Virus record (IMG/VR): IMGVR_UViG_3300020045_009645
Span: 1 to 37,589 of that record
Length of the DNA stretch: 37,589 nucleotides
Source of the DNA: a virus
Lineage: Duplodnaviria; Caudoviricetes
Strand: one strand, 5' to 3'
This document shows, one piece after another, positions 6,167-12,021 of the stretch. Numbering within the stretch: the first letter of the stretch is position 1; each line of letters opens with the position of its first letter. Under the pieces are notes generated by a model, which was not told the origin of the DNA, did not search any database, and saw only the letters and a program-made list of their open reading frames with translations. The translations under genes and the position numbers were made by a program.

Positions 6167-6607
6167 TTAAAACGGACAATGTTCTTCGTGATCTGGCGGT
6201 AATTCTGTAACATGTTTATCATGGTCGTGATACTTTCGGATATTAGCCATATTTGTGATAAGTTGGATATTTCCAATGTGGTACCCTTCCCAGTTTCGTA
6301 TTCTGTCAACTGTGCAATTTTTTCCACGGTAACCACGTTTAATGATATATCCTTTTTCTTGGCACCATTCCCGAAACTGCTCCAGCGTGATGGTGAAATT
6401 TTTGCAACGTCTTAATGCATTGCCTCTAAAATTCACATATCTATCATAAACAGGATCAATAATGCGCCTGTGAATGTGATAATGTTTGTGACATAATCCA
6501 CGCTTTTTAGCACATGGTTTTGATTTGCAATGATAAGCGCAACAATAACGACCTTCTATTTTCTTAGCTTCTGAAATTTTGAATTCCAGTTTTTTAGGAG
6601 TGAACAT
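6167..6607 (-). CDS. Putative HNH/His-Me-finger endonuclease with Cys/His-rich N-terminus
   Basis: CCAYHC...LCHKHY metal-binding motif; TVDRIRNWEGYHIGNIQLITNMAN matches the DRIxxxxGYxxGN pattern. Confidence 0.65.
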   Translation of the reverse strand: MFTPKKLEFKISEAKKIEGRYCCAYHCKSKPCAKKRGLCHKHYHIHRRIIDPVYDRYVNFRGNALRRCKNFTITLEQFREWCQEKGYIIKRGYRGKNCTVDRIRNWEGYHIGNIQLITNMANIRKYHDHDKHVTELPPDHEEHCPF

Positions 6608-7331: not shown

Positions 7332-7346
7332 AACATTTAATTTTAA

Positions 7347-7369
7347 GCAAATATAAACATTAAATTTAA
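7347..7369 (-). promoter_or_regulatory. Promoter/operator element (23-bp repeat)
   Basis: gcaaatataaacattaaatttaa is identical to 9669-9691; minus strand AATGTT followed by TATATTTG. Confidence 0.7.
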
Positions 7370-7395
7370 ATATTTACTATAATTTAAATTTATTT

Positions 7396-8985
7396 TTAAA
7401 AATCTAAATCTTCATCAAATTCTCCTGCTGGAACTTCTTCAAATTGAATTTCTTGCTCTTGTTGTATTCTCAGTTTTTCCAGTCGCTCATTTTCTATTCT
7501 AATACGTTCCAATTCCAACTTTTCAGCTTTCTTTTCACGGGAGGTAAAAATAGCGTTTGCCCAACCTGGTTTATAACCTCTTTCGGCAGCTAATTTTTTT
7601 AAGTCTTCCAACGTTTCGGTTTTACCCTGTTCCTTACGTTTTTCTTTACGAATTAAAGTTTCTGCCGTAATCTCTTGCAGGTCGCCATCAATTTGTTTAG
7701 GAGTAGTATCACGTTTTTTATTCACGTGTCCGCACATTGGACAAACTGGAGCCGGTTCGTAAACAGCAAAACAACTTTCACACATATCGACTTTAACGGC
7801 GATTTCTTGGTTTTTCTTGCCTCGTTTTTTTGTTTCACCTTCTAATGTCCATTCCTGTACATCGTATGGCAAGCCATGGCGTTCTGTGTTTCCTACGTGG
7901 TCTAGAATGAATGCGTATGGCTTTTCACTTGCTGCAATAGATGCTAAACGCCCTTCTTTGGTTTCAAGATCAAAACCAGGTGCGTAAACAGGACGTAACA
8001 CACGACCTCGCTGTTGAAAATTCAATCCCTTACTTTGGGTTGGACGTAATTCGATTGCTGTTGTAGCTCTTGGAATATCCGTTCCTTCGCCGATAAGGTC
8101 ACATGAAGTCAATCCGTCAACTGATCCGTTAGTAAGTCCGTCAATAAGTTGTTTTCGCAAAACATCATCGGTATTGCCGTCAATGGAGTAAAAACGATAG
8201 CCAAAATTTCTAAACTCCTGTGCTACGTGTTCAGCATGAGCTACGGACACACAAAAAACTATTGCAGGTGCGTTTGGACATAATTTACGATAATGAGCAA
8301 CAGCTGAACCAATAATTTTTGGCTTATCGACTAAATTCGATAAATCGTTTTTATTAAAATCCCCCATGCTTGTGTGAACATCTGATAAATCAAGTTTATC
8401 AGGAGTTCCAAAAATACGAGGTCTGACTAAAAATCCTTCGTCCATTAGCCATGGCATATTTTGTCCTTCAATCAATTCGTCAAATAATCCACCGCATTTT
8501 CTGCCTAATCCCTGACCGTCTGAACGAATTGGAGTAGCCGTAACTCCAAGCGAATAAGCCTCCGGAAAATATTCAATAATTTTCCTCCAGCTTCCAGCCG
8601 TGGCGTGGTGAGCCTCGTCAATTATTATTGTATCTGGTTCCCAATTAACAGCAGTCAGATAGTGCAGTCGTTTAATTATTGTCTGCACGCTTGCTACTTG
8701 TACATTTGCGTTAAAGTTTGGTGTATAAGCGGGGTTTATCATTCCGTGTTCAACGTCAAACCGATTTAAAGCTGCCGATGTTTGGCGCAATAATTCAACA
8801 CGATGTACAAGTATTAACACTCGTTTTTTTTTAAGTGACGATTGTTGCGCTATGTAAGTGAATATTACAGTTTTTCCTTACCCACCGCCCGTCGGAAGTA
8901 CTAATAAGACGGATTTAATCGTTTTAAAAGCATTCCTAAGGGCGGCGACAGCTGTTTTTTGATAGTTTCTTAGATTTAACGACAT
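7396..8985 (-). CDS. SF2 DEAH-box DNA helicase with an in-frame TAA at 8878-8880 inside Walker A (about 527 aa if two codons are bypassed)
   Basis: From ATG 8985: MSLNLRNYQKTAV (Q motif)...LLVLPTGGG*GKTVIFTYIAQQSSLKKKRVLILVHR, in frame with the 474-aa ORF; DEAH, TATP, EGTDIP, QQRGRVLR and a C-terminal CxxC-CxxC are all intact. Confidence 0.85.
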
Positions 8986-9410
8986 AATTTATCTCTCATG
9001 TGTTTTATGTTATAAATTGTCGTTTTATCCCTGTTTTTATAGATGCCGTTATCAAAAGCATGATTCATGTTTTCGGTATTAGTCATCCATTCCAAATTAG
9101 ATGGCTTATTGTCTGTTTTTATACAATTTTTATGATTTACTGTTTCTTTGTTTTCCGGATTTTCTACGAAAGTTTTAGCAATAAGTACATGCAATCGTTT
9201 AGTATATTTCTTTGACTTAACAGATAAATATACTTTGAAGTACCCTTTCTTATCTATAGAATGTTTAAGTATGGTTTGCGAAAAATAAGCAACACGACCA
9301 TCTTTATAAATTGTAGGCGATAGTTTTCTTCTAATCCTTCCTAAATCCGAAACTTCATAGTTATTCTCGAACCCGAAGCACGGGAACCAATTTTCTTCTT
9401 CTTTTTGCAT
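8976..9410 (-). CDS. NUMOD4-HNH homing endonuclease (free-standing)
   Basis: ENWFPCFGFENNYEVSDLGRIR (NUMOD4); LHVLIAKTF...VNHKNCIKTDNKPSNLEWMTNTENMNHA (HNH). Confidence 0.9.
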   Translation of the reverse strand: MQKEEENWFPCFGFENNYEVSDLGRIRRKLSPTIYKDGRVAYFSQTILKHSIDKKGYFKVYLSVKSKKYTKRLHVLIAKTFVENPENKETVNHKNCIKTDNKPSNLEWMTNTENMNHAFDNGIYKNRDKTTIYNIKHMRDKLCR

Positions 9411-9450
9411 GTTATTTAGATTGATAGGTTCTGAGTTGTAGCATATTTTT

Positions 9451-9645
9451 TTACACTGCTTGTTTTTCGCTAAGTACTTCGATAGCCAAATTTATTTTAG
9501 CTAATGTTTTGAAGGCTTTCGGGTCTTCTTTCCAGTTTTGAACAGTAGTTTGAGGCACTTTCGCCTCTCTTAGTACATCATAGATGTTTAATCCTAGATT
9601 TTCGCATTTTTCACGAATAATTTCAATCTGTGTTTTTGCTTCCAT
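9451..9645 (-). CDS. Cro/XRE-like helix-turn-helix regulator
   Basis: 64 aa with IYDVLREAKVPQTTVQNWK HTH pattern; first gene after the divergent intergenic region. Confidence 0.7.
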   Translation of the reverse strand: MEAKTQIEIIREKCENLGLNIYDVLREAKVPQTTVQNWKEDPKAFKTLAKINLAIEVLSEKQAV

Positions 9646-9668
9646 TTATATAGTGTTTTAATGTTATT

Positions 9669-9691
9669 GCAAATATAAACATTAAATTTAA
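9669..9691 (-). promoter_or_regulatory. Leftward promoter/operator of the divergent control region
   Basis: TATATTTG on the minus strand; 23-bp identity to 7347-7369. Confidence 0.7.
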
Positions 9692-9724
9692 TTAAAAAAG
9701 TTTTTTTATTCGAAAAGTTTGTTA

Positions 9725-9732
9725 TAGGTTTG
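9725..9732 (+). promoter_or_regulatory. Rightward promoter -7 box
   Basis: TAGGTTTG matches TAnnTTTG, 28 nt upstream of ATG 9761. Confidence 0.6.
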
Positions 9733-9760
9733 CAGAACATAATCATAAAAATATATCGAA

Positions 9761-10021
9761 ATGAGCGCATTTAAAGAATTTGAAGGAATGACGTTAGAAG
9801 GCTCTACTATAGAGCAACGTCACGAGATTTACAAATTGTTGTTTAAAAAAAAACTGATTTACAATCAGCAAGACATGGAAACAGAATTGCTTTGTCTAAA
9901 CAAAATGTCTTTTTACATGCTTCCTGAGAATGAAGGATTTATTCCAGATCATTTTCTTAAATCGAATGACTGCATAAACATTCCATTCGAAGAATTTAAA
10001 ACTCGTTTATCTGAATTATAA
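9761..10021 (+). CDS. Hypothetical protein
   Basis: 86-aa ORF coupled (TAATG) to the next gene. Confidence 0.7.
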   Translation: MSAFKEFEGMTLEGSTIEQRHEIYKLLFKKKLIYNQQDMETELLCLNKMSFYMLPENEGFIPDHFLKSNDCINIPFEEFKTRLSEL

Positions 10022-10824: not shown

Positions 10825-12021
10825 ATGGAGATTAAAGAAAATAATTTATCCAAGAAGCAAACTGAATTTATAGAAGCAGGATTAAATGGCGATAATATAT
10901 TTTTGACAGGAAAAGCAGGTACTGGAAAGTCGTTTGTTACCAAAGAATTAATACGATTATTGACTAAACAGCGTAAAAACGTAGTTGCCTTAGCTCCTAC
11001 AGGAATTGCAGCTAATAACGTAGGAGGCGCAACAATTCATTCAACTTTTTCATTACCTCCTTTCGGGGTGCTAACGTTTAAAGAATGTAATTTTGTCAAG
11101 CCTTCAAAAAGAAAACTATTCGATATAATTGACACCATTTTAATAGACGAGGTGTCAATGTTGCGACCTGATATTTTGGACGGCATACATTGGACTTTAA
11201 TTAAAAACGGTTGCAAAGATTTAACACAAATTCAAATTATATTTATTGGCGACATGGCGCAACTTGGAATTGTTGCCGATGATAATATGGTTTCGGTAAT
11301 GCTTAAAGAATACGGAGGCACTACATTTGATTTTGCTAATATTTATAAAAAAATAAATGTAGTTAAAATTGAACTTGACGAAGTTTTGAGACAATCTGAT
11401 AATGAATTTATTGAAAATTTAAACATTGTCAGAAACGGCAAAAAAGCGGAGTATTTCAGAAAATTTGTAAAAGATGAAGCTAACGGAATTGTACTAGCTC
11501 CGCACAACGCTACAGTTGAAAGATATAATTTTCAAGGGCTAAATTCATTAGAAGGAGAAAAACACGTTTTTACAGCTGAAATTGAAGGCAATTTAAAGAC
11601 GACTGACTTCAATCTTGATCCAGTAATAACCGTTAAGGACGGTTCAAAAATAATGTATTTGGCCAATAGTAAAAACAATCCTCTTGTAAACGGAACTCTA
11701 GGAACTTTTATAGTAAATGAAGGAAAATATTTCATCGAGGTAAAAGGCGAACATTACGCTTTAGAACAAAAAAAGTTTTCCAAAAAAGATTATGTGTTTA
11801 ATGAGGAATTAGGAATGTTGGAATTAAAAGATTTGGGGTCAATTACCCAGTATCCAATAAAACTAGCCTACGCACTTACGATTCACAAATCGCAAGGACT
11901 TACATTTGACGAAGTAACAGTTGATTTAACCTTGCCTTGTTTTGCAAAGGGACAGATGTACGTTGCTTTGAGTAGGGTAACAAAACCAGAAGGTTTAACC
12001 ATAATAACTAAAAAACAATAA
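10825..12021 (+). CDS. PIF1/RecD-like SF1B DNA helicase
   Basis: GKAGTGKS, APTGIAA, IDEVSM, GDMAQL, LAYALTIHKSQGLT, GQMYVALSR. Confidence 0.92.
   Translation: MEIKENNLSKKQTEFIEAGLNGDNIFLTGKAGTGKSFVTKELIRLLTKQRKNVVALAPTGIAANNVGGATIHSTFSLPPFGVLTFKECNFVKPSKRKLFDIIDTILIDEVSMLRPDILDGIHWTLIKNGCKDLTQIQIIFIGDMAQLGIVADDNMVSVMLKEYGGTTFDFANIYKKINVVKIELDEVLRQSDNEFIENLNIVRNGKKAEYFRKFVKDEANGIVLAPHNATVERYNFQGLNSLEGEKHVFTAEIEGNLKTTDFNLDPVITVKDGSKIMYLANSKNNPLVNGTLGTFIVNEGKYFIEVKGEHYALEQKKFSKKDYVFNEELGMLELKDLGSITQYPIKLAYALTIHKSQGLTFDEVTVDLTLPCFAKGQMYVALSRVTKPEGLTIITKKQ

What the first reader, a model, noticed from the sequence alone, without database searches (positions are those of the whole stretch)
8875..9410. 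Free-standing HNH endonuclease plus 6-nt insert: candidate miniature mobile cassette
Seen: a NUMOD4-HNH gene overlaps the helicase start by 10 nt (8976-8985), and the stop-containing insert lies about 100 nt beyond its 3' end, in the most conserved motif of the neighbouring gene. Known: free-standing phage homing endonucleases usually cut conserved motifs of adjacent genes in related genomes, and their own allele must be immune. In T4, mobA and the gene 60 bypass sequence form such a unit. Inference: the nuclease targets the intact Walker A coding DNA, the 6-nt insert destroys the site, and recoding rescues the helicase. This would achieve intron/intein-like homing with only 6 nt inserted in the target gene.
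Basis: inference. Interest (0 to 1): 0.85.

Follow-up and report, generated by a model that had tools for sequence, protein, structure and literature searches.

The report
Helicase-invading nuclease cassette with ribosome hop
A 539-base piece of DNA carrying a nuclease gene sits inside this phage's helicase gene, replacing its first part and adding six bases with a stop codon in the ATP-binding motif; the nuclease likely spreads the piece, and ribosomes, probably pushed by a conserved RNA stem, likely hop over the stop, a kind of decoding not reported for natural genes in the papers searched.

Summary
Confirmed and extended. The SF2 helicase (7396-8985, minus) reads PTGGG*GKT (GGG TAA GGA). 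Against relatives with an empty site, the window carries a 539-nt cassette (8875-9413): a NUMOD4-HNH gene, a new 35-codon helicase start and the 6-nt insert. It replaces 74 nt and leaves the old first 10 codons (9412-9444) stranded upstream, the layout of T4 mobA/gene 60. Seventeen helicase lineages have a stop-led insert at this glycine (6-11 nt); 8 break the frame, which argues against readthrough. All 15 lineages tested have a strong RNA stem ending at the take-off codon (median -20 vs -10 kcal/mol in 57 plain lineages), with compensatory changes. A nuclease gene lies directly upstream in 9 of 15 insert lineages but 1 of 96 plain loci. Best reading: a homing cassette rescued by a short programmed ribosome hop (0.72). 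Hopping, cutting and immunity are inferred; no RNA or protein data were available. Six insert lineages lack the nuclease. The scan found similar hops earlier on other DNA (UvrD and SNF2 helicases, terminases). New here: the mapped homing footprint and an in-frame hop with only a 5' stem. Novelty: new variant of a known kind. Interest 0.8.

The parts
9412..9444 (-). Stranded remnant of the recipient's original helicase start (MLQLRTYQSK-stop). Its stop lies 1 nt before the HNH ATG, so it likely couples translation into the HNH.
   Evidence: 91-97% identical over 32-39 nt to the helicase start of empty-site relatives L004-L009 and L012.
8875..9413 (-). Whole cassette, 539 nt, replacing 74 nt (recipient codons 11-35).
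   Evidence: contigs of runs X1, X8 and X10 join 8874 to 9414; one search gives 74 other letters between..
8976..9410 (-). NUMOD4-HNH endonuclease gene (144 aa), I-HmuI-like.
   Evidence: Orthologues 56-68% identical sit on helicases only 29-32% identical.
8881..8985 (-). Cassette-borne helicase N-terminus, 35 codons, ending in the take-off Gly codon GGG (8881-8883).
   Evidence: 85% nt identity to insert-bearing L001, whose next 300 nt match only 74%. dN 0.28 to L004 here vs 0.016 downstream.
8882..8948 (-). Predicted 5' RNA stem-loop. The closing helix pairs 8940-8948 with 8882-8890 and ends inside the take-off codon.
   Evidence: -30 kcal/mol, z -3.7, vs z +1.5 and +1.9 for two empty alleles. 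66 of 66 cells paired and 5 pairs changed on both sides in 6 sequences.
8875..8880 (-). 6-nt coding gap: stop TAA (8878-8880) plus landing Gly codon GGA (8875-8877).
   Evidence: Absent in L004-L019. Inserts of 6-11 nt at the same site in 16 other lineages.
7396..8874 (-). Helicase body from the Walker A Lys on (492 codons). The predicted hop product is 527 aa with PTGGGKT.
   Evidence: dN/dS 0.018 vs L004 and L005.

Best explanation
A 539-nt cassette (HNH gene, new 35-codon helicase start, 6-nt stop-containing insert) sits inside the phage SF2 helicase gene in place of 74 nt; it likely spreads by homing, and the helicase is likely made by a programmed ribosome hop over the stop. Shown: the cassette's two ends, the stranded old start, the mosaic N-terminus, the same nuclease family on very different helicases, the insert family, the conserved stem. 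Inferred step 1: the HNH nicks the conserved Walker A coding DNA (LPTGxGKT) of empty alleles in mixed infection, and repair copies the cassette. Inferred step 2: the insert breaks that site and gives immunity. Inferred step 3: with peptidyl-tRNA-Gly on GGG and UAA in the A site, the stem (8948-8882) zips up as mRNA leaves the ribosome and pushes it 6 nt forward; the tRNA re-pairs on GGA and decoding resumes at AAA (Lys), giving PTGGGKT. My odds: hop 0.85, nuclease-driven spread 0.85, insert as the immunity determinant 0.55.
For: Footprint. L227 shows a second stranded helicase start upstream of an orthologous HNH. Horizontal spread: HNH orthologues 56-68% identical on helicases 29-32% identical; on a 71-row quick tree, starred branches force at least 8 gains or losses of the insert. 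All 6 close HNH orthologues found lie directly before an SF2 helicase; 5 of 6 have a P-loop insert. A nuclease gene (NUMOD4-HNH, HNH_3, phrog_374 HNH or GIY-YIG) lies directly upstream in 9 of 15 insert lineages found by DNA pattern vs 1 of 96 plain loci (Fisher p 1e-6 on 9/15 vs 0/38 lineages). Frame independence: inserts of 6, 7, 8, 9 and 11 nt; 8 of 17 lineages out of frame. No helicase with a sense codon in the lengthened loop among 20 hits. Stem: 15 of 15 insert lineages at -14.7 to -23.5 kcal/mol vs median -10.4 in 57 plain lineages, p 3e-8; covariation; it ends 0-3 nt from the end of the take-off codon in 17 of 17. In L227, where the insert follows Thr instead, the stem moves upstream with it. 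Selection after the stop: 18 extra synonymous codons and 0 amino-acid changes in the 20 codons after landing among 16 distinct sequences of one family; dN/dS 0.03-0.10 in insert-bearing pairs. Precedent: bioRxiv 2022.08.31.505936 and 2024.12.09.627546.
Against: No protein, ribosome-profiling or RNA data were examined. Six of 15 insert lineages have no nuclease directly upstream, including the closest one (L001) and the largest family (19 viral contigs). L228 has the HNH with no insert. Take-off and landing codons fall in different Gly tRNA boxes in 5 of 17 lineages, and L227 has no matched landing codon. UAA (16 of 17) is read by both release factors (own knowledge), and no A-site stem-loop was found to block them, so efficiency may be low. 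Six of 57 plain lineages have an equally strong stem. In the RTLL-type hairpin only 1 pair changes on both sides, and 98 of 500 shuffles do as well. My patterns required a stop and a final Gly codon, so those two features are partly built in. Lineages are not independent, and most controls are one Firmicutes-type family. The window also encodes a PIF1-like helicase, so the SF2 enzyme might be dispensable.
Confidence: 0.72

Rival explanations
1. The hop is real but is not the immunity device. The nuclease site lies in the replaced codons 11-35 or upstream, the new N-terminus alone gives immunity, and the hop is an older feature that nucleases picked up, perhaps one that limits helicase levels.
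For: Six of 15 insert lineages lack an adjacent nuclease yet keep the insert under strong selection. At least four unrelated nuclease families sit beside inserts. The replaced tract differs strongly from recipients. Manning and Atkins raise a further function for bypassing.
Against: The same HNH family sits on helicases that share little but the Walker A codons. In T4, the homologous-region polymorphisms alone did not block MobA but the bypass insert did, and nucleases are often lost while the bypass stays (passages).
Confidence: 0.13
2. Stop-codon readthrough: the in-frame UAA is decoded, giving PTGGG-X-GKT.
For: The window's insert keeps the frame; 9 of 17 lineages are in frame.
Against: 8 of 17 lineages are out of frame. 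No helicase with a sense codon there among 20 hits, nor TGG among 31. TAA is the window's main stop (27 of 32 long ORFs) and no tRNA gene is present. The stimulator is 5', not 3'.
Confidence: 0.05
3. The 6 nt are removed at the RNA level, by micro-splicing guided by the stem or by polymerase skipping.
For: This would also be frame-independent, and a conserved RNA structure abuts the insert.
Against: No Rfam match. No 6-nt excision that restores Gly-Lys has the U-before / G-end pattern of group I introns (read; rule from own knowledge). A stop right after the last codon and a repeated Gly codon are expected for hopping, not splicing, though my patterns selected for both.
Confidence: 0.04
4. In this phage the helicase is dead (or restarts at GTG 8820 without Walker A), and the PIF1-like helicase covers for it.
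For: PIF1-like gene at 10825-12021. Only one cassette-bearing allele of this clade is known, so selection after insertion cannot be measured for the window itself.
Against: No second lesion in 492 codons. The stem keeps a compensatory change against L001. The codons between stop and GTG are conserved at the protein level in insert-bearing families.
Confidence: 0.06

Closest known systems
Phage T4 mobA / gene 60 cassette and its homologues (Bonocora et al. 2011, not read, as cited; Manning and Atkins, bioRxiv 2022.08.31.505936: abstract, introduction and passages seen)
   Same: An HNH gene inserted inside a conserved essential ORF, deleting about 55-75 nt (here 74) and supplying its own homologous N-terminus followed by a stop-led coding gap. 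Gly take-off and landing codons, a 5' stem-loop, swapping of nuclease families (HNH, GIY-YIG), and loss of the nuclease with retention of the gap.
   Different: Target is an SF2 helicase Walker A, not topoisomerase. The gap is 6 nt and in frame (family 6-11 nt), not 50. The stop is UAA. No A-site/take-off stem-loop, no GAG mini-SD and no 3' barrier were found. The stem runs into the take-off codon. The upstream fragment is a 10-codon stub, not a working subunit. The nuclease is a 144-aa NUMOD4-HNH.
Synthetic 'stop-hops' in E. coli (Weiss et al. 1987, not read; as described in Atkins et al. 2016, PMC5009743, passages seen)
   Same: [quoted passage not shown]
   Different: Those were low-level and unprogrammed. 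The 2016 review states that no natural occurrences of in-frame stop hopping were known. Here the site is natural, conserved and has a selected 5' stem.
Streptomyces phage Hau3 terminase bypass (Antonov et al. 2023, PMC10732093, passages seen)
   Same: Short (7-10 nt) gaps in an essential phage gene, with 5' stem-loop signals proposed.
   Different: Triggered by a hungry UUA codon and proposed as regulatory; 'homing' does not occur in that paper's text.
Magnusiomyces mitochondrial byps (as described; primary papers not read)
   Same: Mobile inserts neutralised by bypassing.
   Different: 27-55 nt, unused sense codon, special mitochondrial ribosomes, no nuclease.
I-HmuI-type NUMOD4-HNH homing endonucleases (PDB 1u3e; the name I-HmuI and its nicking activity are recalled)
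   Same: Same domain order; alignment over residues 12-137, E 2e-9.
   Different: Not in an intron; shorter C-terminus.

Membership tests
T4 mobA/gene 60 bypass cassette | Nuclease inserted within the target ORF with an element-encoded replacement N-terminus | tested here: met
T4 mobA/gene 60 bypass cassette | Stop codon directly after the take-off codon | tested here: met
   UAA after GGG; UAG in T4.
T4 mobA/gene 60 bypass cassette | Matched Gly take-off and landing codons | tested here: inconclusive
   Window GGG/GGA, read by the same tRNA but not identical. Same tRNA box in 12 of 17 lineages; the landing Gly was required by my patterns.
T4 mobA/gene 60 bypass cassette | 5' stem-loop upstream of take-off | tested here: met
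T4 mobA/gene 60 bypass cassette | A-site/take-off stem-loop, mini-SD (GAG) 6 nt before landing, 3' barrier | tested here: not met
   3' fold z +0.3 and +0.9 in the window; z below -2 in only 2 of 17 lineages; no GAG in the sequence.
T4 mobA/gene 60 bypass cassette | About 50-nt gap in a split topoisomerase gene | tested here: not met
   6-nt gap in an SF2 helicase. It works like this family but is not a member.
T4 mobA/gene 60 bypass cassette | Nascent-peptide signal | not tested
   No analysis made.
Programmed translational bypassing | Fusion protein lacking the gap residues, made from unspliced mRNA | not testable with these tools
   No RNA holder listed; no proteomics.
Homing endonuclease (NUMOD4-HNH) | NUMOD4 plus HNH domains with an intact-looking motif | tested here: met
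Homing endonuclease (NUMOD4-HNH) | Horizontal spread with a co-conversion tract | tested here: met
Homing endonuclease (NUMOD4-HNH) | Cuts the empty allele and spares its own | not testable with these tools
   Needs an enzyme assay.
Group I intron or intein | Ribozyme core or intein domain around the nuclease | tested here: not met
   No Rfam match at E 1 or better in 8500-9800; no intein Pfam hit; the insert is 6 nt.

The most novel reading that the evidence does not exclude
A minimal, portable recoding module (an upstream stem that zips into the take-off codon, a stop, and a second Gly codon 3-8 nt after the take-off codon) is enough for useful ribosome hopping in ordinary bacterial hosts. 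Several unrelated homing-nuclease families use it as a third way, beside introns and inteins, to invade the most conserved motif of essential phage NTPases. The window would then be a natural in-frame stop-hop caught soon after homing.
Probability: 0.5. Interest if true: 0.9.

Novelty: new variant of a known kind. Interest (0 to 1): 0.8.

Why it matters
Programmed bypassing is established in very few natural genes, and a 2016 review lists no natural in-frame stop-hop. This family offers at least 17 natural variants with graded gap lengths and two or three stem layouts. That makes it possible to test whether a stem forming behind the ribosome is enough to drive a hop, a role proposed for T4's 5' stem-loop. 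The window also has matched empty alleles (85-91% nt identity downstream in L004-L009), so target site and immunity can be assayed on natural substrates. In practice, gene callers will annotate these helicases as truncated or dead.

Tried and rejected
No RNA holder listed, so RNA-level removal could not be tested. No laid contig spans the insert itself; one X6 contig covers 8912-9050. L124 and L142 (TGTG*GKT) were dropped as likely Ser-to-stop point changes in helicases whose normal motif is TGTGSGKT (motif recalled). L414 was a chance hit. Pattern hits without a downstream DExH frame were dropped as chance: 17 of 20, 8 of 31 and 105 of 116 (part of two rows was cut from view), 11 of 12, 12 of 25, 23 of 45. 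No cultured phage with the insert was found: 3 of 168 GenBank hits were opened, all uninterrupted, and the 2 hits were not opened. 0 of 401 genomes of the class of G002 matched the gap pattern; 3 of 401 of the genus of G001 matched, 2 real. No conserved 3' structure, no tRNA, no Rfam match. The tree is the quick IQ-TREE result with long branches, used only to show scatter. Only 17 of 75 control upstream ORFs went to Pfam; the others were screened by BLASTP with 11 nuclease seeds and by eye, so other nuclease families could be missed. No structure or complex prediction was run, as it would not separate hop from readthrough.

Full report
Observation. The window is a phage record with tail, capsid and terminase genes. 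On the minus strand a 144-aa NUMOD4-HNH gene (8976-9410) overlaps by 10 nt the start of an SF2 (ResIII/Helicase_C, phrog_16) helicase. The helicase frame reads MSLNL...LVLPTGGG*GKTVIF... and continues for 492 codons. The codons are GGT GGG TAA GGA AAA, two more than the normal PTGGGKT.

The insert is a family trait. A pattern with any codon at the stop position gave 20 viral hits; 3 were helicases, all with TAA. A wider pattern gave 23 helicases of 31 hits, all TAA, including a family of 19 contigs. Metagenomes gave 9 of 116 in a scan that stopped at 25 of 64 parts. GTDB gave 1 of 12, on a Flavobacterium MAG contig. Gap patterns gave 13 helicases of 25 hits and 22 of 45, the latter mostly repeats of earlier contigs. 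With L229 and L412 this makes 17 lineages, counting the window and L001 apart. Insert lengths are 6 nt (8 lineages), 7 (1), 8 (6), 9 (1) and 11 (1); 8 of 17 break the frame; 16 use TAA and 1 TGA. My patterns demanded a stop and a final Gly codon. Three cases found without a pattern, through the HNH search, also have a stop directly after the last codon (L227, L229, terminase L236).

The cassette. Of 18 loci found with the helicase body, 17 are uninterrupted and only L001 has the insert. The closest empty alleles match the window at 85-91% nt over the 300 nt after the Walker A Lys and continue to match upstream of 9451, but not in between. The window's 9414-9445 is 91-97% identical to the helicase start of those alleles and reads MLQLRTYQSK-stop, 1 nt before the HNH ATG. 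Contigs from three runs join 8874 to 9414, with 74 other letters between in the two runs where this was given. So 539 nt entered after codon 10 and replaced codons 11-35. The new N-terminus is foreign: dN to L004 is 0.28 there and 0.016 downstream, while to L001 it is 0.095 there and 0.29 downstream. This is the layout described for mobA, where 55-75 nt are deleted and replaced by an element-encoded homologous region followed by the bypass (bioRxiv 2022.08.31.505936, passages). L227 shows a second stranded start.

Nuclease link. Six orthologues (56-68% identical; L227 62%) all lie directly before an SF2 helicase. The four helicases compared are only 29-32% identical to the window's. Five of six carry a P-loop insert; L228 has STGFGKT without one. 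Among 15 insert lineages found by DNA pattern, 9 have a nuclease gene directly upstream, of four kinds. Among 96 plain loci with at least 700 nt upstream, only L228 does, and it was fetched with the HNH. Fisher's p is 1e-6 on 9/15 vs 0/38 lineages, with the caveats that lineages are related and controls are mostly one family. Six insert lineages lack the nuclease; loss with retention of the gap is also reported for mobA. The quick tree needs at least 8 changes of the label.

The recoding signal. The 12 nt before the take-off codon pair with upstream coding sequence in 15 of 15 insert lineages (-14.7 to -23.5 kcal/mol; z -2.4 to -8.6 against synonymous shuffles). In 57 plain lineages the median is -10.4, and 6 reach -17.9 or lower. 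The window's first 105 nt fold at z -3.7, two empty alleles at +1.5 and +1.9. Over six long-range stems 66 of 66 cells pair and 5 pairs change on both sides; 0 of 500 shuffles reach this, but I chose the structure from these sequences. The short RTLL hairpin pairs in 117 of 117 cells with little covariation. The stem ends 0-3 nt from the end of the take-off codon in 17 of 17 and shifts upstream in L227, where the stop follows Thr. No conserved 3' structure exists. The frame after the stop is under purifying selection in insert-bearing pairs (dN/dS 0.03-0.10, with 0.34 in one recombined pair), and the first 20 codons vary only synonymously in four families.

Mechanism. A frame-independent gap, a stop after take-off, a Gly landing codon and a selected 5' stem point to bypassing. 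In T4 the 5' stem-loop is proposed to propel the first steps as mRNA leaves the ribosome. Here the arm that pairs is still inside the ribosome at take-off, so zipping would favour a short forward slide (inference). GGG is called cognate for the GGA-reading tRNA in bioRxiv 2024.12.09.627546. Weak points: cross-box landing in 5 of 17, an unmatched L227, UAA as the stop, no A-site hairpin, and no experimental data. Readthrough, RNA-level removal, a dead gene and immunity by the replaced tract are weighed under rivals.

Comparison and novelty. It works like mobA/gene 60 but fails membership on target, gap length and 3' signals. Its geometry equals the synthetic stop-hop, for which Atkins et al. 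2016 knew no natural case (PMC5009743, passages). Eight literature searches listed no report of such inserts in phage helicase P-loops; the library lacks most subscription papers. Papers seen: Manning and Atkins (abstract, introduction, passages), Wills et al. (abstract, whole introduction), Atkins 2016 and Antonov 2023 (passages); Bonocora 2011 and Weiss 1987 only as cited. The scan's own notes list like elements in UvrD and SNF2 helicases and terminases of other genomes (unchecked) and none for this sequence. My reading was written before that look-up.

Verdict. Observation confirmed; interpretation largely right and extended. New variant of a known kind, interest 0.8.

Noticed in passing
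L236, terminase gene just after a NUMOD4-HNH gene (HNH match 2501-2830): The terminase Walker A region has a 5-nt insert, GGT-TAG-GT, which fits a Gly-to-Gly hop; the frame stays open for 382 aa after it. The upstream fold is weak.
   Followed up: partly
L233, terminase gene just after a NUMOD4-HNH gene (HNH match 2501-2839): The terminase P-loop is interrupted by a longer insert with a stop and a GC-rich hairpin with a UUCG-type loop, more like T4's gap.
   Followed up: partly
L227, about 520-640: An orthologous HNH precedes a helicase with a 5-nt insert after Thr (TAG stop, no matched landing codon). The stem is shifted to end at that Thr codon, and a stranded helicase start lies upstream of the HNH.
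   Followed up: partly
L228, about 2226-2330: An orthologous HNH sits beside an uninterrupted but substituted motif (STGFGKT), possibly immunity by substitution. L016 and L412 have ATGGGKT-type motifs.
   Followed up: no
L215 vs L222 and L274 vs L286: The first 35 codons are nearly identical (dS 0.04) while the helicase bodies are far apart (dS 0.8-1.5), which suggests recent transfer of the 5' module with no nuclease directly upstream.
   Followed up: partly
L055 and at least one other contig of the L043 family: An HNH-like gene lies just downstream of the helicase, and in L055 another lies two genes upstream, in some members only.
   Followed up: no
L391, L325, L364, L295, L308, L301: Uninterrupted alleles that still have a strong hairpin; possible revertants or predisposed targets.
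   Followed up: no
L071, L192, L227, upstream of the HNH start: A shared short motif (TTACCGTTTTACC) that the window lacks at that place; possibly an element end or promoter.
   Followed up: no
window 7336-7372 and about 9657-9694: A 37-nt AT-rich repeat (89% identical) lies on both sides of the helicase unit, possibly an operator or promoter.
   Followed up: no
window 10825-12021 (+) and 6167-6607 (-): A PIF1-like helicase whose start is matched in only some close relatives, and an endonuclease-like gene (phrog_3322) also seen near other helicases.
   Followed up: no
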